Shown: positions 5,448 to 21,553, counted from the first letter of the stretch. The stretch is 32,000 bases of DNA from Saccharolobus solfataricus (GCF_900079115.1 NZ_LT549890.1:1290001-1322000), one strand, 5' to 3'. The notes: generated by a model not told the origin, from the sequence alone. Numbers and translations: made by a program.

Positions 5448-5504
5448 GGGAGTGTTCTCATGCAGTCATCTTATTCAAGAAGTATTAGTAAAATTATATC
5501 AAGT

Positions 5505-5894
5505 TTATCTAATATACTGTACTTCCTTCAAGTAAGCCTCGTTCAAGGGAGTTCCCTCTCTTGAAAACACGCGAGGGTACATTACATTTGACAAGGCTAA
5601 ACTGTACTCCGCCATTCTTATACTCCTATTAACAGCTTTAGTATCCCTAGCCAGCCTCGCCAACCTACACCAAGAATTATGACTCTCCACAAGATAAGTA
5701 TACTTCTTACCCGCTACACGATTATCGAGAACTTGATAAACACAGTAGTAGTCAGTATAGTTTACCTCACTCCTAGTTAACCAACCCAAGAGATAACGAA
5801 AAGTCCCATAACTCCTATCCCCAAACTCGTAAAAAGGCACCCCATCAGCCAGGACTGTCCAAATCCACAAATCCTCCCTCATCACCCCATACAC
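5505..5894 (-). pseudogene. IS1-family-like DDE transposase, C-terminal fragment
   Basis: 129 aa with the pattern W..V.....F.FGDRS...F..LL......YTDY...Y........GKKYT..VES.NS..R......T.. NRS, which resembles IS1 InsB C-terminal halves. The N-terminal half is missing, and the apparent start abuts the MITE at 5896. Confidence 0.55.
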
Positions 5895-5895
5895 T

Positions 5896-5973
5896 AGTAT
5901 TTTGGAAAAGTTCTTAGACTATGATCTAGTGGTATATCCTTTGCCTAAAGCTATAAACTTTCTGAAAGCACTA
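5896..5973 (+). mobile_element. 78-bp MITE (copy 2), TA-flanked
   Basis: Same sequence as 24994-25072, minus one T in a T-run. It lies inside the defective IS1-like element. Confidence 0.8.
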
Positions 5974-6105
5974 ACGTTCTAATCTATTGGCTGCATCTCG
6001 ATTAAAACGACTAATTGTGAAAATTTCTAGTTTGATTTAATTTTACTATATAATATTGAATAAGATAGCTGCATGAGAACACTCCCAAAATAGTCATTTT
6101 GGTGG

Positions 6106-6924
6106 TTACCATTTTATAAAGTAAGTCCCATAATCTGGTTGCCACAGTTCTAATGTAATTTTATTTCTATCTGCCGCTAACCTATGTTCGCTTTGTATCT
6201 CTACTCCCTCATGAGGCCCATCTAAGGTGACTACTAAAACTTTTTCCGCCTTCACGTTTTTTGGAACCCATGGTAGATTTATCGTAATCTTTGCATAATA
6301 GGTGGGTTGACCTATTGTGATCCCTTCCATACTGTAATTCATATTGTATCTTCTATAAAGCTCTTCCATAGTTGATGGAAAGTATTTTTCATCCCAAGTA
6401 TAGAACCCGTATTTTATCAATTCCCCTACCTCTAACGGGGGATCAAATGTTACGCGGAATTTAATGAGCTTAGGATCTACCTCTTTTTCCCACTTACCTT
6501 CACCTCTTTTATTCTCATCCAGCAGATTTTTCCTAGTTATCTTATTAAACCTTATTACTTTAGAGGCTTTTTCCGCGTTGAACCTATTGGATTGATGAAT
6601 TCTTTCCTTAACCCCGTTAACTAAAGGAGTTGCTTCGAAGTTTATTCTTAGAGCTCTATCTCCTTTAGGAGAGGCACTGCATATCTTATTTATGTTAAGG
6701 AATAGGAGATATTTATCTCCTTCAGAGTATACCTTACCCTTAGTTATCGTACCGTTCTTTAAACCTATTATATTTAGCTTACTCAGCCCATTTAGTATTC
6801 TTTCTATTTCTGTTCTATTCATTCTTATCATTATCTCGTTTATGTTAACGTCCTCATTATCAATGCCAACTTTCTTAAGTAGTGTTGCTATGAGTTTTTT
6901 TGAGGCTAAGGAAAGTTCTCCCAC
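6106..6924 (-). CDS. hypothetical protein, cluster-flanking paralog A (possible N-terminal winged-helix, C-terminal beta-rich domain)
   Basis: 272 aa, long ORF. The C-terminal region shares motifs with the protein at 18690-19481: GELIKYGFYTWD versus GEIIEFGLYIWN, and LELWQPDYGTYFIKW versus IKVHYPDYGIYKLSY. The N-terminus (LIATLLKKVGI...MNRTEIERILNGLSKLNIIGL) looks wHTH-like by eye only. Confidence 0.7.
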   Translation of the reverse strand: MGELSLASKKLIATLLKKVGIDNEDVNINEIMIRMNRTEIERILNGLSKLNIIGLKNGTITKGKVYSEGDKYLLFLNINKICSASPKGDRALRINFEATPLVNGVKERIHQSNRFNAEKASKVIRFNKITRKNLLDENKRGEGKWEKEVDPKLIKFRVTFDPPLEVGELIKYGFYTWDEKYFPSTMEELYRRYNMNYSMEGITIGQPTYYAKITINLPWVPKNVKAEKVLVVTLDGPHEGVEIQSEHRLAADRNKITLELWQPDYGTYFIKW

Positions 6925-7131
6925 ACCTTAATATTCTTAAAGCGTGTTATAAAAGTGTTGCTAAGTCCTCTATGTTGGAAACAAAATGCGGAAGTTGAAA
7001 CCAAATTAAAATTAGATTAACTATCAGTTAATATTAATATTAAGTTATAAACAATTAAAAGGTAAATATTAAGTAAATCTATAAAATTTAATAGGAAACA
7101 TTTATATTTTAAAGGATACTACTAAAGATAC

Positions 7132-7983
7132 ATGATGATGGAGAAAATAGTAATGGTTGCTATATTGATTTTATCAATCATTTCACTGCCATTGACTATA
7201 ATATATCCTCACGCTTCTTCATCTCTTCATTTAGGTCCTCAAAGAATATGCTTTAATATAACGTCAAACAATTACGTAAGTGCAGTATATAAGCCGATAA
7301 TTCAAGTTTTAAACTTAAATGCTAGGCCAAACTCAACCGTTAATATAACCTTAAGTTTAACGAATTCGTCAATGCCTATGATGCTTAAAGTACCTAAGTT
7401 CAATCTATTAGGATATACTTTAGGTGGCAAACTGGTGACAATCAACGTGAACCCTTTAGGATCTCTCTGTTACGGCATACCTGATCTATCGATTTCAACA
7501 CCCGTTTTCTCGGCAGGTGTTTATATGGTTTTCAGCGGGTATATAACTGGTGTTTTGTCTTTTTCTGGAAATATTTCCAAACCATTATTAATAAGACTTA
7601 CAGATGCGGGAAACTTAAGTATACCTATTAAAATTCCTCTCCATGCTTCTGGTAAAGGAATTATAACGCTATCTAATATTACCTATCATGTAGCTATAAG
7701 CCTAGTTGTTAAATATTCTTCACTGCTAAACTCTGGGAATTATACTATACTGCCTCTAAAGCCTATAGGGAACTTTAAGGGAGTCCCGTCCTATATTAAT
7801 GGAATTTATGTTATTGAAAGCAATTCTTACATGACCCTTCTTATCCTTTACTTGTATATTGTGATTGCAGTCGGGATGATTATAGCTATAATTGTCAAAT
7901 TTAGGAGGAAAATAATACATATTATTACATTCCTCAAGCACTTCGTGAAACTTACAAACCCATGCTTAGATAAACCAAAATAA
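7132..7983 (+). CDS. type-I-like membrane-anchored secreted glycoprotein (N-terminal signal/TM, C-terminal TM anchor)
   Basis: 283 aa. The N-terminal hydrophobic segment is IVMVAILILSIISLPLTII. There are at least 8 N-x-S/T sequons. The C-terminal TM is LLILYLYIVIAVGMIIAIIV, followed by a basic tail KFRRK. The TATA-like tttatattttaaa at 7101-7113 is centred about 27 nt before the ATG, which gives leaderless geometry. Confidence 0.75.
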   Translation: MMMEKIVMVAILILSIISLPLTIIYPHASSSLHLGPQRICFNITSNNYVSAVYKPIIQVLNLNARPNSTVNITLSLTNSSMPMMLKVPKFNLLGYTLGGKLVTINVNPLGSLCYGIPDLSISTPVFSAGVYMVFSGYITGVLSFSGNISKPLLIRLTDAGNLSIPIKIPLHASGKGIITLSNITYHVAISLVVKYSSLLNSGNYTILPLKPIGNFKGVPSYINGIYVIESNSYMTLLILYLYIVIAVGMIIAIIVKFRRKIIHIITFLKHFVKLTNPCLDKPK

Positions 7984-8221
7984 TAGAACCTAACCTCAAT
8001 TCAAGAGCGTAGGTATAATGAATGTAGCCTTTTTCATAATAGTTTCAAAAGGACTAGTTTTAACTTAAGATGTTAAAAATGAGTTAGTAATAGAAACAAC
8101 AAGAAATATTTTGTATTAGGGAATATCATTTTCCTTCGCGTCTATTAAGAAAAAGGCTATAATTGCTCGCACTCCTTCTTAAGCATACATATTTATATAT
8201 AACTTAAAACTACTTGTTTAT

Positions 8222-10063
8222 GTGAGCTATAGGACATTACTCTCAATAATTGTGATAATATTGGTAATGATTTCTTCCTTTTCCATATTATGTATAATAA
8301 TATCTAATGCAGAAATTACTATTAACAATAATATTACAGATTCAAATAATATTTATATGGCCCCTAATTTTTTTGGTGCCGATCCCGCTATGATCTTTCC
8401 CTATAATAGTACAATGTTGGGAATTATTCTAGCAGGCGGTGGTGGTCCAGAGCTTTCTGTAAGTCAAGTATATAATTTATCGTATCCTTATAATCAAGTC
8501 ATGTTTAATTATCCGGAAAATGGACCTTTAGAGTTAAATATGTCTTATGATAATTGGTCCATTCATGAAATATCATTCATAGCTCTACCAACTGTAGATG
8601 TTTATCCTACGAAAATATATAACTCTTCACTTTATCTTGGTAAGGGACTACTCTCCGCTACCTATAAAAATATCGCTATCATAATTATTTCTTATAAAGA
8701 TTTTTCCAAATATAATATAACTCTTAGTCAGTATCCTTCCCATATTCTTCAAGGAACGGATGGCATAGGTTTATTTATAATTCCGCTGCAAGCATTACCA
8801 TGGGTTTATGGGAAAAGTGTTAACTCATCCGTGATCCAACAGACCTATATTTTTCAAAACGAGACAAATTTAATAATTAACGGAAATGATTTTGGGTCTT
8901 TAACTCAATTGGGTCTTTATGATGAATTATCATCAACTGTTCAAACTTTAGAGTTTTTAAACACTACTTCACCTTATTCAAGTATATTAATTGATTCGAT
9001 AAATAACACTATAGAAGCTATGGCAAATCGATTTACCATTGATAACCAAACCATTGATAATTCAATTATTGACCTGGCCTATAGTTCGTCAACATTAACT
9101 CCCGGAGAACAAGAATTTTACGCTTACATAGTGAGTTTCGGTGGCAATATTACTACTAAAATAGAAAGTGAAATCTATTCAATTTTACCTAAATTAGTTA
9201 ATTTAATACAGTATCCCAGTATCTCAAATCAATCTCCAACCACAATAGTTTCGGTGTTTAATGTTCTGAATAGATCAGCTACTAAAGTACCTGGTGTTGT
9301 ATATGGATTACTTTACAATTCTACTGGATTAATTTCAAAATCTATAATGAATTCTAATGGTGAGTTAGTATTTAATGTTTCTCCAGGTACGTACGTACTT
9401 TACGTCTACCATTATCCAAACTTAGGACTTAATTATACAGAATATTGGGGTCAAATTAGAATAGATGTCAGATCTGGTATAAATAAATATAATTTTACTA
9501 GAGTTGAGCCGTGGATTTACAATATAATCGATACATCGATAGATTCTCAATTTAAGATATCTGTGAAAATTATTAATCCATTAAATCAAACAGTTAGCGG
9601 GCAGCTATATTTATGGATAAGTAACGGAATCGCATCCTCAGCTAGCGCTCCAACATTTGAAAGTCAGTTGCTCTTAAATCCTGGCGTAAATTCTATTAAT
9701 TATACTTATACAGCCTCAAGTAGTGGTTCTTACTATGTTTACGCAGTTTTGAAATCTTTTGTTTTAAATCCTGAAGGAGAGCCAATAACCACTGATCAAT
9801 ATAATTGGACTAGTATGGGAGGTATAAATATAAGTAATACGCCTACTCAAACTGTAACTACAACGTTTACGGTTACCCAAACCACTGTAAACCGGCAAAC
9901 TATCACCTCTACCGTTACCCAGACAAGCGAAGGTACCACCACAGTAGTAGTGGTTAATAAATCTTTAAGTGCTGGAGCAGAGCTATTAATTATCACTATA
10001 TCTATAATAATTATTGTAATTATGGGAATTATAATAATTCTGTTCCTAAGAAGATCTAAGTGA
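8222..10063 (+). CDS. large surface glycoprotein with Thr-rich stalk and C-terminal TM anchor
   Basis: 613 aa with a GTG start. It has an N-terminal TM (LLSIIVIILVMISSFSILCIII) and dozens of N-x-S/T sequons. Beta-sandwich-like stretches include GELVFNVSPGTYVLYVYHY and ISVKIINPLNQTVSGQLYLW. The Thr-rich linker is TPTQTVTTTFTVTQTTVNRQTITSTVTQTSEGTTT. The C-terminal TM is followed by RRSK. TATA atttatatataa lies at 8191-8202. Confidence 0.8.
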   Translation: MSYRTLLSIIVIILVMISSFSILCIIISNAEITINNNITDSNNIYMAPNFFGADPAMIFPYNSTMLGIILAGGGGPELSVSQVYNLSYPYNQVMFNYPENGPLELNMSYDNWSIHEISFIALPTVDVYPTKIYNSSLYLGKGLLSATYKNIAIIIISYKDFSKYNITLSQYPSHILQGTDGIGLFIIPLQALPWVYGKSVNSSVIQQTYIFQNETNLIINGNDFGSLTQLGLYDELSSTVQTLEFLNTTSPYSSILIDSINNTIEAMANRFTIDNQTIDNSIIDLAYSSSTLTPGEQEFYAYIVSFGGNITTKIESEIYSILPKLVNLIQYPSISNQSPTTIVSVFNVLNRSATKVPGVVYGLLYNSTGLISKSIMNSNGELVFNVSPGTYVLYVYHYPNLGLNYTEYWGQIRIDVRSGINKYNFTRVEPWIYNIIDTSIDSQFKISVKIINPLNQTVSGQLYLWISNGIASSASAPTFESQLLLNPGVNSINYTYTASSSGSYYVYAVLKSFVLNPEGEPITTDQYNWTSMGGINISNTPTQTVTTTFTVTQTTVNRQTITSTVTQTSEGTTTVVVVNKSLSAGAELLIITISIIIIVIMGIIIILFLRRSK

Positions 10064-10331
10064 TCTCTTAATTAATTTAATTATTGGATATGTACTAAAT
10101 TTTATAAATCATTAATAATATTCTGAGAGTATAGAATTTTATCCCATATAAGATGTGATTGGGAACTTTTCTTATTATAGTAAAAATTTCTAGTTCCATT
10201 ATTAACTTATGCTGTAATTTGTATGCATACATACAGATAATTAATGTCGTAGCAATTATCATATCTTCCCTTGATAATACCAGAAACCTTGTACGTCCTA
10301 GAAAGTTTTTAACCTTCAAGTCCACTTTATG

Positions 10332-10495
10332 GGGAGATTCAGATATCCGTTGCGAATTCACTTTATTTCAAAGATTACTACGAAATTAACTAAATGAAGA
10401 TGATTAACTAGCAGAGATACACGATTATCAATATTAACATTTTTACAACCGCATTATTTACAAATTACAATTCGCAAAGGAGACTTGAGTTGCTC
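10332..10495. mobile_element. 164-bp MITE (copy 2)
   Basis: Same length as 4123-4286 and clearly homologous across its length, with a diverged right terminus. It sits in the intergenic region upstream of the tubulin-like gene. Confidence 0.7.
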
Positions 10496-10614
10496 TAATG
10501 TTGTCATATACATCGAAATTAGTTCCAGAACAACGTTGCTTTGGAACCATTTGATATAAGATATATATAAATAGCAGATAGAGTAGAAAGAAACTAATAA
10601 GGGGATGAAAGGTA

Positions 10615-11712
10615 ATGTTAGAAGTAGTATATATAGTAGGAGCATTTGGATCACCGTTGCTAACTCCGCCTACGTTGGCAGTAGCTGGTTTCCTTATCGC
10701 TGTGCTTATGGGTCTAGAATATGGTGTATTATGGGTTCTAACTGGAGAATCTTTAAATAGAGAACTAATATTAGTTATATCAAATATAGTTTACTCGATA
10801 GCGTGGTCTATTACTGCACTACCTTTTACTCCAATATATTATACACTTCAACCTTATTTTTCTCAACCTCTCCTCATTTACCTTTATCTAGCACTTTTCA
10901 TAGGTTCTATATTGCTTGGTGTAATCCCAGCTATAATGTATATAAGAAAATATTTACAATTTAATAAAATACAAAAGGAATTTAAACAGTTAGAACTAGA
11001 TTATAAATCCATAAATCAAGAATATAGTGAAATTAATACGAGACTTAATAAAGCTAAGGAGGAAATCAATAATGTCATGGATAAGATTAATAAAGCTAAG
11101 GAATTACATGAAACCGCACTTAGGGATCCAGACTTAATAGTTACGGCACTTGATAAAAAACCTGAGATACCAGAGGTTATAAGACCTAATGTAAATTACG
11201 TAGTAGCAGGCTTAGGAGGTACTGGAACAGCGCTATTGGAGGCACTCATAGATTATTTAGTTTCAAAAAACGTCATTAAGGAAGACGGGACTAATCCTTT
11301 CTTATTCGTGGCTTTTGATACGAACCAAGCAAGTATTGCGAGACTGAGGAAAAAGTATGAATATACACCAGTTGGAAAACTATTGTATACCTTTAATAAC
11401 TTTGAGGCACTCACTACAGCTAATATAATAAGCCATAATCCTTGGCTTGCTGGGTTAAACGTTGATGTAATTCAAGGCTCTGGAATGAAGAGAGCTATAG
11501 GTTATGCATCTTATAATACGGTGAAGGAAGCCATGATGGAGGATATCCTCAGAAGGTTAAGTGATTTAATTGCCAAAACGAGAACTAATCGTATATTTTT
11601 AATAGTATTTACCGCTTTAGGAGGAGGTACTGGTTCTGGCTCATTCATTCATTTTACGAAGGACTTTATAAGTAGGCTAGGTAGGATAACTGGAGATTCA
11701 GAACCTTACGTG
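10615..11712 (+). pseudogene. 5' part (366 codons) of the IS-disrupted gene for a TM + coiled-coil + tubulin/FtsZ-superfamily GTPase
   Basis: It has 3-4 N-terminal TM helices, then a coiled coil (FNKIQKEFKQLELDYKSINQEYSEINTRLNKAKEEINNVMDKINKAKE). FtsZ-like motifs follow: T1 VVAGLGGTGT (11209-11229), FVAFDTNQASI (compare FtsZ NTDAQAL), T3-like IQGSGMKRAIG, and the tubulin signature T4 ALGGGTGSG (GGGTGSG at 11620-11640). The reading frame runs into the IS at 11713. Confidence 0.8.
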
Positions 11713-12938
11713 AGAGTGTCCGGAATGTAATTATCTGAACGAATAGATAAACAGAATGATAAATATTAATATTGCCAGAAGGGTAGGACCTGGATCACCG
11801 AGAAAAACTTTATAATGGAAAAATATCAAGACGAGAGGATTTACCTATCGCGCATAGCGTTGCCTGATCGCGAGGAGGCGCGTCTCAGAGCTGAACGGCT
11901 CTACGTCCTGGAGGAGTCCTCCGTTGGATCGCGAGGAACATCTTGATGTTGTAGATCACTCCCAGGACGTGAAGGAAGACGTCGTTCCTCCAGGTCGTGG
12001 TCCCGTAGGGCCTCCAGAACGCGTTCAGGTAGGTGCCGAAGAACTCCACGTGGGCCCTCAGGGTAGTGAAGGGCTTCTCCCGCGCTATGAGCTGTGTCGG
12101 GGAGGGAGAGAATCCCCTGTCCGCGATCTTAATCCCCTTGAGCGGTGACTTGAACCTCTTGTCCGAGAAGTTGGCCGGCTTCACCGTGATGGACCTCACG
12201 AAGAGGGAGACGGAGATCACGGCTATGGCCTTGAGCCCGTAGTGCGAGACCCCTCTCTTCTTGGTCCACCTTCCCTCGAACCTCCTCTTGGTTCTCCCCA
12301 GGGAGAGCAGCTTCCTGGCCCTCTCCAGGTTACCTTCCCTCCTCTCCAGCTCCGCCTTCTCCCGAAAGGTCTCCACGCTCCTCTTCCCAGGAGGTAAGTC
12401 CAGTAGGAAGGAGTCCACTAGCCACGCCATGAAGTCCACGAGATGCGCGCTCGCAGGGAGGTAACTGGGTAGGCACTTCTCCTCAAGCTTGAAGGAAATC
12501 TCCAACAACTTCTTCCTCACCCCGTACAACCTGCCCACGAAGTCGTGCAGCGTGCTCTTCCCCACCTTCCTCCCCACGAACCAGGCCACGACCACGTTCA
12601 CGTTAACCATTTTCACCGCGTCCCTATAGGAGCAAGAGTAGAGCACCATGACGATTAACAACTTCAAGTAAACCAGCGCGCCCTCGCCCAGAACCCTCTC
12701 CAAATCCATGGCGTCCAGCACGGGCTTGATCTCCGTTAACCATTTTTCCCTCCACGGCATATCCTCTATTGGGGGAAGAGGGTAGTACATCAGGTTTGGT
12801 ATGTGTCTTAATGTTCTTGCCATGGTACTACCCTCTACTCCCATAACTTAAGTGTTACTCCAATTTAATCCAAGATAATGCTAAAAACCAATTTATTCTT
12901 GCCAATAAAAATTCAATTTTTACATTCCGGACACTCTC
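11713..12938 (-). mobile_element. 1226-bp GC-rich IS (copy 1), IS4/IS5-type DDE transposase, about 18-bp terminal inverted repeats
   Basis: Terminal inverted repeats are (g)agagtgtccggaatgta and tacattccggacactctc. It is flanked by direct ACGTG (11708-11712 and 12939-12943). It is nearly identical to 15218-16444 in the opposite orientation. The size is in the ISC1225 class; the name is not verified. Confidence 0.85.
11885..12844 (-). CDS. IS4/IS5-family (DDE_Tnp_1-like) transposase
   Basis: 319 aa. The motif GLKAIAVISV...ITVKPANFSDKRF...IKIADRGFSPS matches the second-Asp region of IS4/IS5 transposases (..an..D......aDrGY). GC content is far above the surrounding DNA. Confidence 0.8.
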   Translation of the reverse strand: MGVEGSTMARTLRHIPNLMYYPLPPIEDMPWREKWLTEIKPVLDAMDLERVLGEGALVYLKLLIVMVLYSCSYRDAVKMVNVNVVVAWFVGRKVGKSTLHDFVGRLYGVRKKLLEISFKLEEKCLPSYLPASAHLVDFMAWLVDSFLLDLPPGKRSVETFREKAELERREGNLERARKLLSLGRTKRRFEGRWTKKRGVSHYGLKAIAVISVSLFVRSITVKPANFSDKRFKSPLKGIKIADRGFSPSPTQLIAREKPFTTLRAHVEFFGTYLNAFWRPYGTTTWRNDVFLHVLGVIYNIKMFLAIQRRTPPGRRAVQL

Positions 12939-12943
12939 ACGTG

Positions 12944-14959
12944 ATGGGATTCGGCGTGCTACCTAGAGGAAATGAAGGTAAATTATTTCACGTTAATGCA
13001 TTTTCCGCTATAAAGGAAATGCAGTTTATACTTAAAAATGGCGTTAGATCAAAAGATGAGAAGGCAAGTAGCGGAGCAGAAAATACTATAAATCTCATTA
13101 ATCCCTTCTTAGCATTTTTCATTATAAGTAGAGATAGACCCGTTAGAGATATAGATACTAATATAGCGGTAGGTCTAGCGAGATTTATATCGGATATAGG
13201 TACTTCTGGCGTAGTTGAAGCAAATCAGCAAAGTAAATATGCTGAGACTTTCGATCTCGGAGATATTAAAACTAAAGCTGCAATGTCTCCGGATTCCTTC
13301 TTCACCTTCAACAGATATGACATTTATTTCCCTGCTTCAAGAATATCGTGGTATAAAAACGTAGGAGTTATTGTAGTTAATGACATTAATTCTAGATATG
13401 CTAAATTAAGGGAAGAGTTAAATGAAATTTCGAGACTCTTATCTGGATACAAGGATAATATCTCGAAGTTTTTAGCGAATTTAGATAACCTTAACAATAC
13501 CGTTAAATCCATGACTGTAAAGGTGTACAGAAGATGGAGCAATAGAATAGGCGAAACACATACTCAACTTCTAAAGTGGAGGGCGGAAGTAGTAGAAGGA
13601 GGGAGTATATCACCTAAGAACCTTGAGACTCCATTAAATAGCATGAATAGCTCTACTGAAGAAAACGTTGAGAGTATAGTAATCTTAAAGAGGAGAATAG
13701 ATGAGTTCAATGAGATTGTGAAGGAAGAGGAGTCATTTTTAAAGAGTCCTCCTGCAAGCCAGATAGAGTACGTCTTTCCAGTTAGAGAACTTGAGAATTT
13801 TAACGTATCCCAGTTATCCACGGACAAAGCATCACTTTATAGACTAATCGAGGAGTATAGGAGAAAAGACGAATTCTTAAGAGCTTTAGCAGACTTAAAA
13901 GCTCCACTAGGTTCAGTAGGGCAGACAATGGCTAATATCGATTACCAGAAAATTAACGTTCCTATACCCATAACTACCGAGGCTAAAGAATTCATTTCTA
14001 AGTACAATTCTGGCTTAATAAAGCAGAATGCAGTAGTATCCCCCGATATAGCTAGCGTATTGATGGTTACTGCATCAATGCAGGATAATATAAACGTTAA
14101 TGATTTTCCTAATCCAGAAACCCTTAAACAAGCGTTAGAGAGTAAGACTCGCAATCCAGACGCTAAAATGGGCTATATCAATTCAAAAAGATTTAGTATA
14201 TCCACATATCACATAATAAATGGTGTTTACATATGGAGAATATCTAAAAATACCCCTCCTATTCTAAGGGATTTAACGTACCTCATAGAGGATTATGAGG
14301 CTGTTAAGAACGAAAACTTTGGAGAGTTAATTTACCATCATACATTGTTTTATAATGATCCTCAGACCTTTGAAGCATTAACGGGAGAACAAATAGCCAA
14401 TTTATCCCCTAATCAAGCAGCTTGGAGGATAATAGAATTTTGGGCGAACTATAATCCAGAAATAGAATATATTAATATTTGGGGAATTATAGAATTAGCC
14501 GGCGTATATAGTGATCTTAAAATTATTAATAATAATATTGATAATTTAATGGAATTACTTGACGGAGCTATAAAGAGTTTACAAAGGGGAGTAACTAACG
14601 TAGATGTGGTTAAGGTAAAGAAATATTTAGATGCAATAACCTCGGCAAAAGTTCCATCTTCAGAAAACGTTAAGGCAATCTACGAGGCTAATAAAATAGC
14701 GAATAAAGACGAGGTGAATAGAGGTCTCAAAGAGATAGCCGATTTAAGCCTACAAATACTCTCAAAACTGGAAGACATAAAGGTGAGATACGGTCAAAAA
14801 TGGATAGATGATCTGAATAAGTTAAAGAAGGAATCCACAGATTACGGTATAAATAGGATTATACAAACCCTTATAAATCACACTGATACGTTAATTACTA
14901 AATCAGAGAGTTTAAGTGAAGATCTCAATAAATTCGTGGAATCCATAACCTTAGAGTGA
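12944..14959 (+). pseudogene. 3' part (671 codons) of the IS-disrupted tubulin/FtsZ-like GTPase gene
   Basis: Joining 11712 to 12944 restores ...GDSEPYV|MGFGVLPRGNEGKLFHVNAF. GVLPRGNEGK resembles the FtsZ T5 segment (PFxFEGxxR). LINPF is T6-like. VGLARFISDIGTSG...TFDLGDIK resembles H7 plus the T7 synergy loop (N-x-D-x-x-D type, here FDLGD). A long helical C-terminal region of about 500 aa follows. Confidence 0.8.
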
Positions 14960-14965
14960 ACTAAA

Positions 14966-15217
14966 TTGTCCTCCTCATTCGATCCTGAGAGATCCCTACT
15001 AGATTTTTTCAAATCCAATAACAGCGAGCAAACGTTCTATATTTTGAAGGGACTTTATGAAATATATAAAAGTAAAGGTTATACTGAGTTCCTTAAGGAT
15101 ATTACTGGTCTAATTAATTTAGTAGCGAAATATGAGACTATGCTATCCATAAGTTCTAACACTAAAGGTAATTTAAAGAAAATAAAGGATATGTTGGAGA
15201 GGTTAAATATAGACGTG
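14966..15217 (+). pseudogene. 5' part (84 codons) of the second IS-disrupted gene of the cluster
   Basis: A TTG start lies 6 nt after the upstream stop, giving an operon-like arrangement. The frame runs into IS copy 2 at 15218. Confidence 0.65.
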
Positions 15218-16444
15218 AGAGTGTCCGGAATGTAAAAAATTGAATTTTTATTGGCAAGAATAAATTGGTTTCTAGTATTATCTTGGATTAAATTGGAGTA
15301 ACACTTAAGTTATGGGAGTAGAGGGTAGTACCATGGCAAGAACATTAAGACACATACCAAACCTGATGTACTACCCTCTTCCCCCAATAGAGGATATGCC
15401 GTGGAGGGAAAAATGGTTAACGGAGATCAAGCCCGTGCTGGACGCCATGGATTTGGAGAGGGTCCTTGGCGAGGGCGCGCTGGTTTACCTGAAGTTGTTA
15501 ATCGTCATGGTGCTCTATTCCTGCTCCTATAGGGACGCGGTGAAAATGGTCAACGTGAACGTGGTCGTGGCCTGGTTCGTGGGGAGGAAGGTGGGGAAGA
15601 GCACGCTGCACGACTTCGTGGGCAGGTTGTACGGGGTGAGGAAGAAGTTGTTGGAGATTTCCTTCAAGCTTGAGGAGAAGTGCCTACCCAGTTACCTCCC
15701 TGCGAGCGCGCATCTCGTGGACTTCATGGCGTGGCTAGTGGACTCCTTCCTACTGGACTTACCTCCTGGGAAGAGGAGCGTGGAGACCTTTCGGGAGAAG
15801 GCGGAGCTGGAGAGGAGGGAAGGTAACTTGGAGAGGGCCAGGAAGCTGCTCTCCCTGGGGAGAACCAAGAGGAGGTTCGAGGGAAGGTGGACCAAGAAGA
15901 GAGGGGTCTCGCACTACGGGCTCAAGGCAGTGGCCGTGATCTCCGTCTCCCTCTTCGTGAGGTCCATCACGTTGAAGCCAGCCAACTTCTCGGACAAGAG
16001 GTTCAAGTCACCGCTCAAGGGGATTAAGATCGCGGACAGGGGATTCTCTCCCTCCCCGACACAGCTCATAGCGCGGGAGAAGCCCTTCACTACCCTGAGG
16101 GCCCACGTGGAGTTCTTCGGCACCTACCTGAACGCGTTCTGGAGGCCCTACGGGACTACGACTTGGAGGAACGACGTCTTCCTTCACGTCCTGGGAGTGA
16201 TCTACAACATCAAGATATTCCTCGCGATCCAACGGAGGACTCCTCCAGAACGTAGAGCCGTTCAGCTCTGAGACGCACCTCCTCGCGATCAGACAACGCT
16301 ATGCGCGATAGGTAAATCCTCTCGTCTTGATATTTTTCCATTATAAAGTTTTTCTCGGTGATCCAGGTCCTATCCTTCTGGCAATATTAATATTTATCAT
16401 TCTGTTTATCTATTCGTTCAGATAATTACATTCCGGACACTCTC
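15218..16444 (+). mobile_element. 1227-bp GC-rich IS (copy 2), inverted relative to copy 1
   Basis: It has the same terminal inverted repeats as copy 1. Flanking repeats are ACGTG (15213-15217) and tCGTG (16445-16449). It differs from copy 1 by one A in a homopolymer next to the terminal repeat and by a handful of substitutions, which give 4 amino-acid differences in the transposase. Confidence 0.85.
15312..16271 (+). CDS. IS4/IS5-family (DDE_Tnp_1-like) transposase
   Basis: 319 aa, with 4 substitutions relative to 11885-12844. Confidence 0.8.
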   Translation: MGVEGSTMARTLRHIPNLMYYPLPPIEDMPWREKWLTEIKPVLDAMDLERVLGEGALVYLKLLIVMVLYSCSYRDAVKMVNVNVVVAWFVGRKVGKSTLHDFVGRLYGVRKKLLEISFKLEEKCLPSYLPASAHLVDFMAWLVDSFLLDLPPGKRSVETFREKAELERREGNLERARKLLSLGRTKRRFEGRWTKKRGVSHYGLKAVAVISVSLFVRSITLKPANFSDKRFKSPLKGIKIADRGFSPSPTQLIAREKPFTTLRAHVEFFGTYLNAFWRPYGTTTWRNDVFLHVLGVIYNIKIFLAIQRRTPPERRAVQL

Positions 16445-16449
16445 TCGTG

Positions 16450-18693
16450 AAAGAACTGGAGAGATTATCAAAAAGTATTGCCTCTGACCTCATTAATAAC
16501 ATAAACGATGTTTGTATTTCAATTCAAGGTTACTATAATGATAAGAAACTACCCATGGTTTTCAAATATAGCTGCCATGAAATGTTACCAGATCCTTATA
16601 ATGCTGACCATAACTACCCCGCTAGGTTAAAGTATTTCTTGACAACAGTTCTTAGAATGAGGAATTCTTACGAATCAACAGTTAGATTCTCTACAGATTT
16701 AATAGATTACTATTCTAAAAAATTGGGATATGATATATCAAATATAAAGGACTTTTCCGAGAAATTAAGATTCGTAACTAACTCCCTTCTGGATCCTTCT
16801 TTCATATCAACCCTTCAAGGAATTACTAAAGTTCTGATGGATTCAACCGAGTATTTATGTGTAATATCTTATTACTTAACACCTCAAAAAATTAGAGGCA
16901 AGAAACCCTCAACAATTATAGAATACGAGCCATTAATAGATAATATTATTAAATACTCATCATACTTCCTAAGATTTATTTTCGAAAAAACTGACAGATT
17001 TCTAAATTTTATTCCATCAGCTGGCCTAAACTTAACTGAATTAAGGAATATAGCCAATCAAATGCTCGAAATACTCTCTAAAATTAACCTAAATGTTTTA
17101 GAATCTTATCTTACAAATCAAGGAGAGTTGAAACTATCTCAAATTTATACTGGAGACCTACTATTCTTTACCTTCTTTAATTTAGCTGATGCATTAAATA
17201 TTTATGATGATTACATATATAAAATCAGAAACGCAGTACTTTCCGTACCTTTAGAAAATAGGATCGCAATAACTAGAAGTATTCTCGGATTAAAAGATGT
17301 TGAGGATATTAATATGAGCTGTAGAGATGTACATAATTTTATTCTAAATATGAATGAAATCTCAAATGAAATTTATTCTGGTGGAAATATTGCAGAATTA
17401 ATAGATAGTCTGCGAAAGTACGTTTTCATAAGGGATTCTATAAATTATGCTTTTAAAGATGTAGCACTATTAATGCAGAACGTACTATACTCTAAAGAAA
17501 TCACGTATTTAAGTATGTCCCTTCACGTAGAAAACTACATACATAATACCTCAGCCATAGAATTACTTGATAGAATTAGAATAGATTATAATGATTATAA
17601 CCGATTAATTAATAATTTACATGAGTTTAGGGACTGGATTAACGTACTCAAAAAGCTCGATTTAGATCAAAAGTTGTCTGAATCTCTAGTCAAGGTAGTG
17701 AGCGGGGATCCTCCAACTAATAGTAAAATGAGTTTGGATGAAGTAATAGGAAAGATAATTAAGAGAGAACAAGCTAACGTTGAGGAAGTTAAAGGAACTG
17801 GAATATACGAATTTAGAACAGACAATAGGGTAATAAGAGCCATGCCCGTTATATACGATATGTGGAAGGAAATAGGAGATGACGGGATAGAATATTCCCA
17901 TTTAGTAAATTGGTTAAGTAAGAGATTAGATATTGATGATGATAGAAAAGTTAATGAGATAGCAATAAAATACTTAAATGCGTCATATTATGCAGGGTTA
18001 ATAAAACTTGAAGAAAAACCGACAACTAAGCCTCCAGATACTGAACAAACTCGTAAAAGAGAAATCACGATTAACGCAATAGGTATCCCTACTGGAGCAA
18101 GATGGAAATTCATACTCGCACGGGAAAATAAATATCTTAATTTCGATACAAACGAAAGTTCGATAAGGATTAAAGCGCAAGAAAAAGATAATCTAACTTT
18201 CTATGATGTTACGATAGGCAATGTTATATATGTACCCTATCCTAGGACGTATACCATTAGATCTAGTGATTTATCAAAAGGCGTGTTAGACGTAAAATAT
18301 AATGTATCTTCCCCTCAATCAAGTCAAAGGACTGGAAAAACTAATGTGCAAACTAATGTAAAGATTTCCAAACCCAAGGGAACTGCAACCGCAGGTGTTA
18401 TATTATCAATAGTATATATTATCGAACTAATAGTAATTGCAAGTGGATTCCAATACTCTAACATTCTATTTGAAGCATTAACAGTAATGGACATATTCTT
18501 TCAGTTAGCAATAATGGGATTACTAGTATCCGCTGTAACTAACCCCTATAACTCCCATAAAAAAGGTTCATATATTATCATAATATCGATAATAATGTTC
18601 TTCTTTTCAATCCCCATAATAGAATATGTGATATTCTTCATTATATTTGATATTGCAGTTGGAATTTCATTAGCAAGATTTAAACGTAGGTGA
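16450..18693 (+). pseudogene. 3' part (747 codons) of the second IS-disrupted gene: large helical protein with a beta-rich module and 3-4 C-terminal TM helices
   Basis: Joining 15217 to 16450 is in frame (...ERLNIDV|KELERLSKSIA...), giving 831 aa. C-terminal TM segments are AGVILSIVYIIELIVIASGF, LTVMDIFFQLAIMGLLVSAV and IIIISIIMFFFSIPIIEYVIFFIIFDIAVGISLA. I recognised no catalytic motif. Confidence 0.7.
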
Positions 18694-19481
18694 TAGGTAT
18701 GGAAAAGAAAAACTCAATAAATATATCATTATTAGAAAATTTAGCAAATTTTTTCTCCATAGGGGAAATAGAAAAGGGAGAACTAAGAGCAAATTCAGAA
18801 ATAATTAATTATCTTTTAGAACAAGGTCTAATAAGACAAATAGAGAGAAATTTTATAGTAGATGAACTGCTCAAATTTATTATATTAAAATATAGTAATA
18901 TAGTAAAATTAAAAATGTCTAAAGACTATTTAGTGAAGACTCAATCAATATATATACTCTTAATGATAGTAGACGAGAATTATCATAAAATACCTTTTTA
19001 CGACTATATTGCGTATAGCGGACTGGTTAAGATAAAAAAGAAGAGAATTGCAAGGAGTGTAATAAGAAATGGTAAAAAGATCATCAATAATAATCAAGGC
19101 GAAATACATTTAATGAAATATCAAAAAAATAAAATAAAGGCTGAGATTAACCTAGATCAAACGAAGTCTGGAGAGATAATTGAATTCGGCTTATATATAT
19201 GGAATAGGCCATCTAAGCTAAGTTTAATGGGAGATAAGACCTTTAGCCAAAACTATTTCTGGATATACGCTCCTACCTTAGAATACTCCACCAAAATACT
19301 TCTCGAAAATAATCTAAATGTAGAATCGATAAACCTAGAAAGGTTCTTATATCTAGATGACAACCATCAAATTAAGGCACCAATTAAAAATCAATATATG
19401 CTCAGAAAAGAAAAAAATTATATTGAGATAAAAGTGCATTATCCTGATTATGGTATATATAAACTATCGTACAATTTATAA
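18690..19481 (+). CDS. hypothetical protein, cluster-flanking paralog B
   Basis: 263 aa. Either a GTG start overlaps the upstream stop, or the start is the ATG at 18699. It shares C-terminal motifs with 6106-6924 (see that feature). Confidence 0.7.
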   Translation: MIGMEKKNSINISLLENLANFFSIGEIEKGELRANSEIINYLLEQGLIRQIERNFIVDELLKFIILKYSNIVKLKMSKDYLVKTQSIYILLMIVDENYHKIPFYDYIAYSGLVKIKKKRIARSVIRNGKKIINNNQGEIHLMKYQKNKIKAEINLDQTKSGEIIEFGLYIWNRPSKLSLMGDKTFSQNYFWIYAPTLEYSTKILLENNLNVESINLERFLYLDDNHQIKAPIKNQYMLRKEKNYIEIKVHYPDYGIYKLSYNL

Positions 19482-19507
19482 ATTGTTAACTAGGTATTTA
19501 TCTTAAC

Positions 19508-19821
19508 GGGGGTTAAGGGGGCGGAAGACCCTTTCCGTGAGGGATGGATAGCCCCCTTATATAAAAGTTTTTTAACTAATCTAAATCATATATTTTTTAA
19601 TGATAGTTACCAATGGAGTGAGCGTCACCGAGACGTCTTGGTTAAAGCGAGGGTCGATGTGGTACGCCTCTGCTCCGGACAGTAGCCCCAAAGGGGTAAC
19701 AGTGTCATGGTTAATGAGTTTCGTTCGGGGTCGGAACGACCCTTAGTGTGGAGCTCCGCCCTCTACCGCTGGCAAGGTGGGGGTATGAAGCAGGAAGCCT
19801 TGTAGGGCAGGGTAGTTCACT
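19508..19821 (+). mobile_element. 314-bp ORF-less derivative (MITE-like) of an IS200/IS605-family tnpB element, retaining the left end and the right end/omega-RNA-like region
   Basis: 19508-19570 aligns with 245-310 (acgggggtt-aagggggcggaag...). 19725-19821 aligns with 1446-1549 (ggggtcggaacgacccttagtgtggagctccgccctctacc...ggcaaggtggggg...gaagcaggaagc...ggtagttcac). Both copies follow a TAAC (241-244 and 19504-19507). Confidence 0.75.
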
Positions 19822-19845
19822 ATACGAAAATCGTATCGATTGTTT

Positions 19846-20232
19846 GGGGTGTTCTAATGCATCCATCTTATTCGATAATAAATAATAAAATTATATCAGA
19901 TTAGAAATTTTCACAATTAGTCGTTCCGAATCCAGATGCAGCCAAAGGAATTAGAACGTGAAAACAGCCTCTGAAAAAGGTTTATGTGCAAGGATTACGA
20001 AATCTTTTTGTAGTAGTACTTGAATGGATCTCGCGAACTCTTGCACATAAGTTTTTCTAAAATAATGTCTTTGTTCAAATTTCTATATCTTAAACGTTAA
20101 ACGAGCGTTTTTCATATTACTCCAATATTTTTACAAATGTTTTTTGAATTTCATGACTGTTTGAGAACACTCCCAACTTGATATAATTTTACAAATAATT
20201 TTAGAATTTCATGATTGCATGAGAACACTCCC
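19846..20232. mobile_element. 387-bp non-autonomous derivative of the IS1-like element, with a duplicated right end
   Basis: The left inverted repeat ggggtgttctaatgcat and the next 110 nt align with the reverse complement of 5975-6086. The right end aatttcatgaYtgNNtgagaacactccc is present twice (ending at 20174 and 20232). An internal 11-bp stem pairs ttatgtgcaag (19982-19992) with cttgcacataa (20040-20050). Confidence 0.6.
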
Positions 20233-20577
20233 AATTCAAAGAAATCCAATTTTATTTATATCATCAGATACATATAATTAAATTTTAGACTATATTAAAA
20301 ACAGAGTAAATTTTCTTATATTTGAAGAAACAATATGATAATCCTAGCTGAATTTATATTTGTAAGACGATTTTGGATCTACTGAGAAGGGGCGAGGCTT
20401 GTCTTTTCTGTGTCAAAAGAGTTTGAAACTGAAGTAGAAAGTCGTATCTTAAGTACTCGAGTTAAGTTTAAAGTCATGCTATACACTTTTTAATACTGTG
20501 ATTTATACTTTACAATTCCAACTGAAAATCTCGAATGACGTAATTGTCCCCCTTTCACATCTAAACTCAGTAGGACC

Positions 20578-21279
20578 TTGTTCCTCTCCTTCTCCCCAAC
20601 TTACTCAAAGATCACTGAAAGCAAGGAACCACACAAACCCTTAAGAATAACCGTAATAAAAGATCACGGCAAACCCTTATATTCCACGGGTAAAAATAAA
20701 ATAGTGCTAAAGACTGAAAACACATACACATTTACCGTAAATACCCTATTAGAGGATGTGGTAAAGGAAGTGGTAAAGACCGAGAGTGTCAATAAGGAAA
20801 TTTACAATACGAAATTTCACGTTGAGCTGGAAAACATTATAGTCAAAGAGGAGTTTAAGATTAATGATGCCAGATTCTACAAAATTCACTTTAAGACCCC
20901 AACACTCCTACAACCCCCGAGACCTAGTATCAAAAGAAAAGGCAATAGATACGTCTTGTTCCCTTACGTTCCACTCCTCTTTTACTCCATAGCCTCCCAT
21001 TGGAATAGATACATGAATAACAAGATAGTTGGAGTAACTGGTAGCAAAACCCTATATTATTTTAGAGAAGTAAATTACAAGATAAGGCCTCTAACCGCAT
21101 ATTATGGGAACATACCTAATAAGGGATTTGTGGGATGGGTTTTATTTGAGTTAAAAGCTAGGAAGGGAAGCAATTTAAGGGAAAACATCAGAAGGCTCTT
21201 AGATTACGCAAATTACTTCGGTATAGGAAAAAGCAGAAATATAGGTTTTGGAGAAGTAGATGTAAGACCTTTGGAATAA
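20578..21279 (+). CDS. cas6: Cas6 CRISPR repeat endoribonuclease
   Basis: 233 aa. The C-terminal glycine-rich loop [14 protein letters not shown] is the Cas6 signature G-x-G-x-x-x-x-x-G-F-G. The body is beta-rich with a double ferredoxin-like pattern. Only a TTG start is available, because the frame is closed at 20536-20538 and has no ATG. No clear TATA is visible, so the N-terminus or expression may be compromised by upstream IS debris. Confidence 0.8.
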
Positions 21280-21398
21280 TATTAAAGATATCTTATTTGA
21301 TTTCTTAAAGATCTATCATGCTGAATTATTACAGAATAGGTAACTTAATTTGATTAAATTAATGCATATACGTTTATCATTAGTTTTCCTCCAATTTT

Positions 21399-21431
21399 GG
21401 GTGATTCAAGGATCCTTGCGATTTCAATTTG
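21399..21431 (-). repeat. terminal fragment of the 164-bp MITE family
   Basis: gggtgattcaaggatccttgcgatttcaatttg matches the reverse complement of 4254-4286. Confidence 0.5.
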
Positions 21432-21493
21432 TTTCTCTAAAAACAGATAAGAATAATTGATTCGACATTTTCGATAATACTAATAAGAGACGA

Positions 21494-21553
21494 GGGAATG
21501 TTCTCATGCAGTCATCTTATTCGAGAAGTGTTAGTGAAAATATATCTGATTAG
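21494..21553 (+). repeat. solo left end of the IS1-like element
   Basis: gggaatgttctcatgcagtcatcttattcgagaagtgttagtgaaaatatatctgattag aligns with 5448-5505. No partner end or ORF is nearby. Confidence 0.6.

What the first reader, a model, noticed from the sequence alone, without database searches (positions are those of the whole stretch)
11708..16449. The same GC-rich IS hit two adjacent cluster genes, in opposite orientations, at the same target motif
Two 1226/1227-bp IS copies interrupt the GTPase gene and the very next gene. They differ by one homopolymer indel and a few substitutions, giving 4 amino-acid differences in the transposase. In the GTPase gene the insertion lies between the T4 signature and T5, 24 codons after GGGTGSG. 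Both insertions sit at ...ACGTG|A... (ccttACGTG|atggg and tagACGTG|aaaga), with duplications ACGTG/ACGTG and ACGTG/tCGTG. Two independent knock-outs within 3.5 kb of one operon suggest one of two things. Either there was selection to silence the system (a toxic or costly product, or a lab-adaptation event), or a local hop with strong ACGTGA target preference. The inverted 1.2-kb copies also make the 2.3-kb segment 12939-15217 a ready-made invertible cassette through homologous recombination.
Basis: seen in the sequence. Interest (0 to 1): 0.65.

Follow-up and report, generated by a model that had tools for sequence, protein, structure and literature searches.

The report
Two ISC1234 insertions in a dead operon
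Two copies of ISC1234, a catalogued Sulfolobus insertion sequence, interrupt a tubulin-like GTPase gene and its neighbour; the first hit is already published and shared by sister strains, and the second is a strain-specific hit on an operon that was already broken, so the finding is ordinary.

Summary
Two inverted copies of one 1.23-kb, GC-rich IS (window 11712-12938 and 15217-16444) split a 1037-aa tubulin-like gene and the adjacent 831-aa gene.

The element is ISC1234, an IS5-family element of Saccharolobus solfataricus. The GTPase is the FtsZl1 protein SSO1376. Makarova & Koonin (2010) already reported it as disrupted by a transposon just after the GTP-binding loop.

The target is the 4-bp palindrome ACGT, not a 5-bp ACGTG. 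It is the target at 12 of 20 independent sites, and 5 more are one base off.

The two copies differ by 21 substitutions and belong to two subfamilies. Copy 2 is one substitution from five copies elsewhere in sister genomes, so a local hop from copy 1 is rejected.

Copy 1 is shared with strain P2, CP160827.2 and many sequencing runs. Site 2 is empty in all of them. CP160827.2 instead carries a different IS in the third gene.

The best reading is one founding knock-out followed by neutral, lineage-specific IS accumulation in a dead operon of an IS-saturated genome. Selection for silencing and a functional invertible cassette have no support here. Interest is low.

The parts
8222..10063 (+). Conserved upstream neighbour, 613 aa. 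It has a signal/TM segment, an ectodomain rich in N-glycosylation sequons, a Thr-rich stalk and a C-terminal TM anchor.
   Evidence: An orthologue (607 aa, 86% identity) sits directly upstream of the intact operon in MAG loci L023-L026. Pfam gives only a sub-threshold HTH_NWD1 hit.
10615..11711 (+). 5' part of the FtsZl1 (Tubulin_2) GTPase gene, SSO1376-type. It encodes four N-terminal TM helices, a coiled coil, and GTPase motifs T1 to T4.
   Evidence: The repaired 1037-aa protein hits Pfam Tubulin_2 (E 7e-15, 55.5 bits against a cut-off of 27). GGGTGSG lies at residues 336-342. SSO1376 is named in PMC2875224.
11708..11711 (.). Left target-site duplication ACGT of copy 1.
   Evidence: Empty sites in L010 and L023-L026 read CCTTACGTG.
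11712..12938 (-). ISC1234 copy 1 (subfamily A), 1227 bp, with 19-bp perfect terminal inverted repeats. It is antisense to the GTPase gene.
   Evidence: It is 1-3 substitutions from eight copies in CP033235.1. The same insertion is present in P2, differing only by two homopolymer indels.
11885..12844 (-). Transposase of copy 1, 319 aa.
   Evidence: It is in the same 90% cluster as proteins that NCBI and UniProt name 'IS5-like element ISC1234 family transposase'.
12939..12942 (.). Right target-site duplication ACGT of copy 1.
12943..14959 (+). 3' part of the FtsZl1 gene. It is in frame with the 5' part once 11712-12942 is removed.
   Evidence: The repaired ORF is 1037 aa. It is 92% identical over its full length to the intact orthologue in L023.
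14966..15216 (+). 5' part of gene 2, an 831-aa orphan membrane protein (AAK41613 / Q97YE7 in P2).
   Evidence: The gene is intact at 831 aa in P2, in the 98/2 draft and in many runs.
15213..15216 (.). Left target-site duplication ACGT of copy 2.
15217..16444 (+). ISC1234 copy 2 (subfamily B), 1228 bp, in the same direction as gene 2. It is present only in this genome.
   Evidence: It is 21 substitutions from copy 1 but 1 substitution from L027, L028, L030, L031 and L034. The site is empty in P2, L014, L015, L044 and L010.
15312..16271 (+). Transposase of copy 2, 319 aa. It has 4 aa differences from copy 1 and 1 aa difference from P0027 (AAK42278).
16445..16448 (.). Right target-site duplication of copy 2. 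It reads TCGT, one mismatch to ACGT.
16449..18693 (+). 3' part of gene 2, with three C-terminal TM helices.
   Evidence: A GTG-started 748-aa ORF (16447..18693) begins at the junction.
18690..19481 (+). Gene 3 of the operon, 263 aa, soluble, no known domain. It is intact here.
   Evidence: It is conserved after gene 2 in L023 (87% identity) and L011 (39%). In CP160827.2 it is interrupted by a 1173-bp IS1-type element.

Best explanation
**What it is.** The window comes from a Saccharolobus solfataricus genome that is nearly identical to strain P2. It is most likely strain P1; this is inferred from the 3,034,024-bp contig length and the accession patterns.

**How the IS inserts.** The element is ISC1234, an IS5-family element with a presumed DDE transposase. 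It inserts at the palindromic tetranucleotide ACGT. Repair of a 4-nt staggered cut duplicates that tetranucleotide.

**Order of events.** Two separate transposition events from two different ISC1234 subfamilies hit one three-gene operon: TM-fused FtsZl1 GTPase, then an 831-aa membrane protein, then a 263-aa protein.
1. A subfamily-A copy entered codon 366 of the GTPase gene in the common ancestor of the sequenced S. solfataricus laboratory lineages. This inactivated the operon.
2. A subfamily-B copy from elsewhere in the genome later entered codon 84 of the downstream gene, in this lineage only.

**Why two hits.** The second hit, like an independent IS1-type hit in gene 3 of another lineage, is most simply neutral IS accumulation in DNA that was already non-functional. 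The genome is about 10% IS.

**Shown versus inferred.** Shown: IS identity, boundaries, target, subfamily assignment, presence or absence across strains, and intact orthologues under purifying selection. Inferred: the staggered-cut mechanism, the neutrality of the second hit, and the strain name.
For: **IS identity.** The transposases fall in the cluster named ISC1234 / IS5 family.

**Ends and target.**
- The 19-bp inverted repeats are perfect, and the duplications are 4 bp at 17 of the 19 genome-derived sites.
- The target is ACGT at 11 of 19 sites. It is ACGA or TCGT at 5. Three sites are atypical.
- A metagenome copy adds one more ACGT site.

**Subfamilies.**
- Copy 1 is 1-3 substitutions from eight copies.
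- Copy 2 is 1 substitution from five other copies.
- The two copies differ from each other by 21 substitutions.

**Presence and absence.**
- The P2 locus is 100% identical across 15 kb. It has copy 1 at the same site and an empty site 2.
- The 98/2 draft and more than 20 sequencing runs have intact gene 2, with contigs that break at the copy-1 ends.
- CP160827.2 has copy 1, an empty site 2, and a 1173-bp IS in gene 3.

**Intact operon in nature.**
- Both sites are empty in Saccharolobus MAGs at about 90% nucleotide identity.
- dN/dS against the window is 0.14, 0.25 and 0.19 for genes 1, 2 and 3. The repaired ORFs carry no stop or frameshift, so inactivation is recent.

**Chance clustering.** The simulated probability that any pair lies within 3.5 kb is 22-50% for 15-25 copies, and 57-91% if only 30% of the genome is permissive. 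About 32 operon-sized segments per genome are expected to hold at least 2 IS.

**Literature.**
- The disruption of SSO1376 is already described (PMC2875224).
- IS elements make up about 10% of the genome (bioRxiv 10.1101/2024.09.02.610847).
- IS elements cluster next to other IS in S. solfataricus (PMC2246112).
Against: - Neutrality of the second hit is inferred, not measured. No expression or fitness data exist here.
- Three lineages each carry hits in this one operon, which could also be read as repeated selection.
- The right-hand duplication of copy 2 is TCGT rather than ACGT. This is unexplained; it may be a point mutation or a repair or sequencing error.
- The window genome's own other ISC1234 copies could not be retrieved, because look-ups of its proteins were blocked. 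Subfamily B membership therefore rests on sister genomes.
- HMM support for an IS5-type DDE domain is below curated cut-offs.
Confidence: 0.8

Rival explanations
1. Adaptive silencing. The FtsZl1 membrane module is costly or toxic, for example in laboratory culture. Each IS hit (gene 1, then gene 2 here, gene 3 in CP160827.2) was selected because residual expression remained harmful.
For: - Three lineages carry disabling IS hits in this one 6.4-kb operon.
- Intact alleles are seen only in environmental MAGs and other species.
- Copy 1 is antisense and copy 2 is sense, so downstream genes might still be transcribed.
Against: - The founding hit alone already truncates the GTPase.
- The later hits are by different IS types at different places, as expected for random decay.
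- Chance clustering is likely in this genome, and IS clustering is a documented general pattern here.
- No expression or fitness evidence exists.
Confidence: 0.12
2. Local hop. Copy 2 is a daughter of copy 1 that transposed 2.3 kb away into the nearest preferred ACGTGA site.
For: The two copies are close together, belong to the same IS family, and share ACGT-G-A at both sites.
Against: - There are 21 substitutions between the copies, while copy 2 is 1 substitution from five subfamily-B copies elsewhere.
- Its transposase shares all four variant residues with P0027.
- The operon holds 27 ACGT sites.
Confidence: 0.02
3. Functional invertible cassette. The inverted IS pair acts as a recombination switch that flips the 2.3-kb segment and so regulates the operon.
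For: - The pair forms 1.2-kb inverted repeats at 98% identity.
- ISC1234 copies do recombine: L029 is an A/B mosaic, and L029 and L034 share only one junction.
- P1 and P2 differ by two large inversions (PMC4872121).
Against: - The segment is in native orientation, colinear with P2 and the MAGs.
- Both genes are already broken in either orientation.
- No site-specific recombinase is associated with the pair.
- Any inverted IS pair has the same property.
Confidence: 0.02
4. Promoter donation. Copy 2 lies in the sense orientation and ends 2 nt before an in-frame GTG. It re-drives transcription of an N-terminally truncated gene 2 (748 aa) and gene 3, downstream of the polar block made by copy 1.
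For: ORF 16447..18693 starts at the junction and is in frame. The transposase stops 173 nt upstream on the same strand.
Against: This is purely positional. No archaeal promoter or transcript evidence is available, and the protein would lack its first 83 residues.
Confidence: 0.03

Closest known systems
ISC1234 (IS5 family) of Saccharolobus solfataricus, as named by NCBI, UniProt and ISfinder
   Same: - The 319-aa transposase is 99-100% identical to proteins named ISC1234 transposase.
- Length is about 1.23 kb with terminal inverted repeats.
- It occurs in many copies in P2, P1 and 98/2-type genomes.
   Different: Nothing essential differs; these are two ordinary copies. I could not find a published target-site description in the searchable library. 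The ACGT logo derived here may or may not already be in ISfinder.
E. coli IS5 (own knowledge: 4-bp duplication at the target YTAR)
   Same: Both make a 4-bp target duplication at a short, near-palindromic tetranucleotide. Both have a single transposase ORF and short terminal inverted repeats.
   Different: - The target is ACGT rather than CTAG/CTAA.
- The transposase is so diverged that IS5 HMMs score below their cut-offs.
- The element is archaeal and restricted to Sulfolobales.
FtsZl1 (FtsZ-like 1, Pfam Tubulin_2) family; SSO1376 of S. solfataricus (Makarova & Koonin 2010, PMC2875224)
   Same: [quoted passage not shown] It has an N-terminal TM fusion, a coiled coil and a helical C-terminal region.
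   Different: - The paper judged the part after the transposon 'partly disrupted and poorly alignable'. Here, precise excision gives an intact 1037-aa ORF that is 92% identical to intact orthologues now available.
- No vWA partner gene was found.
- The second insertion, in gene 2, is not mentioned in the paper.
IS-driven strain differences between S. solfataricus P1 and P2 (PMC4872121)
   Same: The strains are almost identical in sequence but differ in mobile elements and inversions.
   Different: This particular polymorphism is not described in that text: ISC1234 in gene 2 here, and an ISC1217-type IS near window 21593-21600 in P2 only.

Membership tests
ISC1234 / IS5-family insertion sequence | Transposase near-identical to named ISC1234 transposases | tested here: met
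   Both 319-aa proteins fall in the 90% cluster whose members are named 'IS5-like element ISC1234 family transposase'. Copy 2 is 1 aa from AAK42278.
ISC1234 / IS5-family insertion sequence | Terminal inverted repeats bounding the element | tested here: met
   A perfect 19-bp inverted repeat, GAGAGTGTCCGGAATGTAA, sits at both ends of both copies and of 24 other copies.
ISC1234 / IS5-family insertion sequence | Short target-site duplication of fixed length (4 bp for the IS5 group) | tested here: met
   The duplication is 4 bp at 17 of the 19 genome-derived sites. The exceptions are one 5-bp and one 7-bp duplication. Copy 2 has one mismatch.
ISC1234 / IS5-family insertion sequence | DDE catalytic domain recognised by IS5-family profile models at curated cut-offs | tested here: inconclusive
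   - Pfam DUF772 scores 22.2 bits against a cut-off of 23.1.
- NCBIfam transpos_IS5_4 scores 17.5 against 140.
- DDE_Tnp_1 is found only in one homologue, at E 0.054.
- D144 (LVDSF) and D242 (DRGF) are invariant in the alignment, and E267 (RxxVE) is kept only in the full-length homologues. These are read as the catalytic triad by inference.
FtsZl1 / Tubulin_2 branch of the FtsZ-tubulin superfamily | Pfam Tubulin_2 (PF13809) match above the gathering score, with T1 and T4 GTP-binding motifs | tested here: met
   The repaired protein scores 55.5 bits against a cut-off of 27, over residues 197-501. GGGTGSG lies at 336-342 and GLGGTG near residue 199.
FtsZl1 / Tubulin_2 branch of the FtsZ-tubulin superfamily | Tubulin/FtsZ GTPase fold | tested here: met
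   The AF2 model of intact orthologue P0001 has pLDDT 70-90 over the GTPase domain. Foldseek against the PDB returns tubulin, CetZ, TubZ and FtsZ at probability 1.0, E about 1e-5, over 270-320 columns.
FtsZl1 / Tubulin_2 branch of the FtsZ-tubulin superfamily | [quoted passage not shown] | tested here: met
   The model shows long helices at 496-632 and 854-1032, many with pLDDT above 80.
FtsZl1 / Tubulin_2 branch of the FtsZ-tubulin superfamily | vWA-domain protein in the same operon (typical of most FtsZl1 operons, not strictly defining) | tested here: not met
   - Genes 2 and 3 and the upstream 613-aa protein have no vWA hit or any other domain hit.
- The gene 2 model is too poor to judge by fold (pLDDT 40).
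- Gene 2 has only 6 representative relatives among 1.84 billion proteins.
Programmed DNA inversion switch (phase variation) | Dedicated site-specific recombinase and short inverted recombination sites flanking a promoter or gene segment | tested here: not met
   The inverted repeats are whole IS copies. No recombinase gene lies in or beside the segment. The segment holds only gene fragments.

The most novel reading that the evidence does not exclude
The TM-anchored FtsZl1 three-gene module is the only tubulin-superfamily system known in Sulfolobales. It sits among CRISPR-Cas genes (Cas6, Csx1, a CRISPR array) and nSTAND3-like genes. On this reading it is a conditionally harmful membrane-remodelling or defence module, and laboratory S. 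solfataricus lineages have repeatedly and adaptively silenced it: ISC1234-A in gene 1, ISC1234-B in gene 2, and an IS1-type element in gene 3.
Probability: 0.1. Interest if true: 0.45.

Novelty: already known. Interest (0 to 1): 0.15.

Why it matters
As an IS finding it matters little. It shows how IS elements keep landing in an operon that is already dead, in a genome that is about 10% IS. It also gives a clean target logo for ISC1234: a 4-bp ACGT duplication.

The useful by-product concerns the interrupted gene. Intact orthologues of the only crenarchaeal FtsZ/tubulin-superfamily protein now exist in Saccharolobus MAGs and in S. shibatae. They sit in a conserved operon under purifying selection. 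The S. solfataricus allele is restored exactly by removing 1231 bp, so the protein could be resurrected and studied.

Tried and rejected
- **Scan of species-representative genomes for the 19-bp inverted repeat.** It gave only one chance hit, in an Ignavibacteria MAG where only the 19-mer matches.
- **Metagenome scan for relatives of the transposase.** Only 3 loci were found.
- **Plasmid BLAST and viral-contig scan for the IS.** Neither found anything.
- **PADLOC defence models on the operon and its neighbours.** No match.
- **AF2 model of gene 2.** Mean pLDDT was 40, so no fold search was attempted.
- **Sigma-70 promoter and terminator scan.** It is not applicable to an archaeon and was uninformative.
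- **Literature on the ISC1234 target site.** Look-ups under the PMC ids I recalled for Filée 2007, She 2001 and Redder & Garrett 2006 returned 'no paper held'.
- **5-bp ACGTG duplication.** Considered and rejected, because the other copies show 4 bp.
- **Inversion already having occurred.** Rejected, because the gene halves are colinear with P2 and the MAGs.
- **Assembly artefact for copy 2.** Rejected, because the junctions are precise, the site is an ACGT target, and the copy has a distinct subfamily sequence.


Full report
**1. Observation**

A whole-window repeat search finds one long inverted pair. Its arms are 11708-12921 and 15235-16448, 1214 nt gap-free and 98% complementary. Reading both junctions shows a perfect 19-bp terminal inverted repeat, GAGAGTGTCCGGAATGTAA, at all four ends. 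This fixes the boundaries:
- Copy 1 is 11712-12938 (1227 bp), with a 319-aa ORF on the - strand at 11885-12844.
- Copy 2 is 15217-16444 (1228 bp), with its ORF on the + strand at 15312-16271.

The elements are 52% GC in a 35% GC background. The transposase ORF has GC3 of 80%, against 25% for the host gene it interrupts.

Aligned, the copies differ by 21 substitutions and one T5/T6 indel. This gives 4 amino-acid differences.

Deleting each IS plus 4 bp restores two uninterrupted ORFs: 1037 aa (10615..14959) and 831 aa (14966..18693). Insertion 1 splits codon 366, 24 codons after GGGTGSG (residues 336-342). Insertion 2 splits codon 84 of the next gene.

**2. What the IS is**

The two transposases belong to a 34-member 90%-identity cluster. 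NCBI and UniProt name its members 'IS5-like element ISC1234 family transposase' of Saccharolobus solfataricus. Relatives exist only in Sulfolobales: S. islandicus at 87% and Metallosphaera at 44-49%.

Profile support for an IS5-type DDE domain is below the curated cut-offs. The family assignment therefore rests on four things:
- the curated name;
- the terminal inverted repeats;
- the 4-bp duplication;
- the motifs LVDSF and DRGF (invariant) and RxxVE (kept in the full-length homologues).

**3. Target site**

I retrieved 24 further full-length copies from sister genomes (CP033235.1, CP011057.2, CP160827.2, CP033241.1, CP050869.1 and P2). Together with the window these give 19 independent insertion sites. 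One more site comes from a metagenome.

The duplication is 4 bp. Among the 19 genome sites the target is:
- ACGT at 11 (12 of 20 with the metagenome copy);
- ACGA or TCGT at 5;
- atypical at 3 (ACCT, a 5-bp ACTGT, and a 7-bp ACTTCGT).

Positions outside the tetranucleotide are weakly biased. G at +1 occurs in 8 of 19 sites. 'GA' on at least one side occurs in 7 of 19, against about 2.3 expected (post-hoc p about 0.005).

ACGT occurs 3.3 times per kb in the window, and 27 times in the 6.4-kb operon. Target preference therefore cannot explain why this operon was hit twice.

Copy 2 has mismatched duplications, ACGT and TCGT. The empty site in five other genomes reads ATATAGACGTGAAAG. The T is therefore a later or repair-associated change.

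**4. The two copies are not mother and daughter**

Clustering the full-length IS sequences gives at least two active subfamilies:
- Copy 1 is 1-3 substitutions from eight copies (L002-L009).
- Copy 2 is 1 substitution from five other copies (L027, L028, L030, L031, L034), and 21-22 substitutions from all A-type copies.
- Its transposase shares all four variant residues with P0027/AAK42278.

A local hop from copy 1 is therefore rejected.

**5. Sister strains and empty sites**

*P2.* The P2 locus (AE006641, 1,206,914-1,229,409; L013) is identical to the window across 4966-15218 apart from two homopolymer indels, and identical again across 16446-21600. It carries copy 1 at the same position. It lacks copy 2, so gene 2 is an intact 831-aa protein, AAK41613/Q97YE7.

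*Other S. solfataricus assemblies.* The 98/2 draft and more than 20 short-read assemblies also have intact gene 2. Their contigs end at the two ends of copy 1.

*CP160827.2.* This genome has copy 1 and an empty site 2. It also has a 1173-bp IS1-type element with an 8-bp duplication in gene 3.

*MAGs.* Saccharolobus MAGs carry the operon intact, with ACGT at both sites. The same intact protein is also recorded under S. shibatae. L023-L026 are at 90-92% nucleotide identity and L010 at 89.5%.

*Selection on the operon.* dN/dS between the window and L023 is 0.14, 0.25 and 0.19 for genes 1, 2 and 3. The repaired ORFs have no secondary lesions. The operon was therefore functional until recently.

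*Source strain.* The window's proteins sit on a 3,034,024-bp contig together with SAI-series accessions. This suggests strain P1 (LT549890). Its paper reports near-identity to P2 apart from mobile elements and two inversions (PMC4872121). The strain name is an inference.

**6. What was interrupted**

The repaired gene 1 matches Pfam Tubulin_2 (E 7e-15). An AF2 model of the intact orthologue P0001 has a confident GTPase domain. Foldseek aligns that domain to tubulin, CetZ, TubZ and FtsZ at probability 1.0.

This is the FtsZl1 protein SSO1376. [quoted passage not shown] Their remark that the downstream part is 'partly disrupted' is not borne out. The excised ORF is 92% identical over all 1037 residues to the intact orthologue.

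The operon and its neighbours:
- Genes 1, 2 and 3 are conserved together in Sulfolobus sp. B5, at 50%, 32% and 39% identity.
- Gene 2 is an orphan, with 6 representative relatives among 1.84 billion proteins. It has three C-terminal TM helices. Its model is unreliable.
- No vWA partner was found, and there is no PADLOC match.
- The upstream neighbours are membrane-anchored, sequon-rich surface proteins.
- The surrounding region holds Cas6, Csx1, a CRISPR array and nSTAND3-like genes, plus six IS-related elements in 32 kb.

**7. Explanation**

The best reading is two independent ISC1234 insertions separated in time. The founding hit in gene 1 is shared by all sequenced S. solfataricus lineages examined here. 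Copy 2 in this genome, and the IS1-type element in CP160827.2, are later lineage-specific hits on an operon that was already dead.

Simulation gives a 22-50% chance that some pair among 15-25 ISC1234 copies lies within 3.5 kb. The chance rises to 57-91% if only 30% of the genome tolerates insertions. With about 200 IS per genome, about 32 operon-sized segments are expected to hold at least two IS. IS clustering next to other IS is documented for this species (PMC2246112). IS elements make up about 10% of the genome.

Adaptive silencing cannot be excluded, but nothing here requires it.

The 'invertible cassette' is a generic property of any inverted IS pair. ISC1234 copies do recombine: L029 is an A/B mosaic, and L029 and L034 share one junction only. 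However, the segment is in native orientation and flipping it would change nothing functional.

**8. Verdict**

The element, the gene and the first insertion are already known. The second insertion is a strain polymorphism.

Interest is low at 0.15. The main residual value is that the FtsZl1 operon can now be reconstructed from intact orthologues.

Noticed in passing
window 11885-12844 and 15312-16271: The ISC1234 transposase ORF has 57% GC and GC3 of 80%, in a host whose genes have GC3 of about 25%. Yet its only relatives are in Sulfolobales. Metagenomic relatives at 88-89% identity are less GC-rich (48-50%). This compositional anomaly is unexplained.
   Followed up: partly
window about 21593-21600 (P2: L013 15403-16549): P2 carries an extra IS of about 1145 bp between Cas6 and the PaREP1 gene, encoding a 354-aa DDE_Tnp_2 (ISC1217-type) transposase. 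The window lacks it. This is a reciprocal IS polymorphism between the two near-identical strains.
   Followed up: partly
L044 (CP160827.2) 15954-17128: A 1173-bp IS encoding a 316-aa DDE_Tnp_IS1 transposase, with an 8-bp duplication, interrupts gene 3 of the same operon in another S. solfataricus lineage.
   Followed up: yes
L029 and L034 (CP033235.1 and CP033241.1): Two ISC1234 copies share one flank but not the other, and the L029 copy is a mosaic of subfamilies A and B. This is evidence of recombination or gene conversion between ISC1234 copies in 98/2-derived strains.
   Followed up: partly
L005 and L036 (CP033235.1, two coordinates): The same ISC1234 junction sequences occur at two places in one genome, next to other transposase fragments. 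ISC1234 appears to be nested in another repeated element that was itself copied.
   Followed up: no
L035 and L003: These sites have atypical target duplications: a 7-bp ACTTCGT and a 5-bp ACTGT.
   Followed up: no
window 6106-6924 (-) and 18690-19481 (+): Gene 3 of the operon has a diverged paralogue 12 kb upstream on the opposite strand, at 28% identity over the C-terminal 130 aa. That paralogue is conserved in the MAG loci, and a relative lies near the operon in Sulfolobus sp. B5.
   Followed up: no
window 5448-5523, 6006-6088, 19843-19925, 20125-20234, 21494-21569; also 4686-4764/5895-5973/24991-25084 and 1444-1486/19725-19767: Several families of short MITE-like or IS-end repeats flank the operon and the Cas6 gene. 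One family starts GGGAGTGTTCTCATGCAG. Another is a 79-bp perfect inverted pair spaced 1130 bp apart. A third is a 43-nt repeat that also follows the TnpB gene at 337-1512.
   Followed up: no
L010 (GCA_964635305.1 contig, 6129 bp): This MAG orthologue of gene 1 is 89.5% identical in DNA but only 82% in protein, with dN/dS of 0.65 against the window. The contig ends in a 70-bp inverted self-match. The cause may be accelerated evolution or assembly and consensus errors.
   Followed up: no
window 26352-29447 (+), 29893-31026 (-), 20578-21279 (+), 31597-32000: The operon lies in a defence neighbourhood. This holds Cas6, a 1031-aa protein with an nSTAND3 N-terminus, Csx1 (CARF+HEPN), and a CRISPR array with repeat GATTAATCCCAAAAGGAATTGAAAG (Rfam CRISPR-DR25, read on the - strand).
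   Followed up: partly
window 11809 and 12916 compared with P2: The only differences between the window's copy 1 and P2's copy at the same site are two homopolymer-length changes (TTT/TT and T5/T6). The P1 paper itself flags mononucleotide-run errors in its PacBio assembly, so the 'homopolymer indel' between copies 1 and 2 may be a sequencing artefact.
   Followed up: partly
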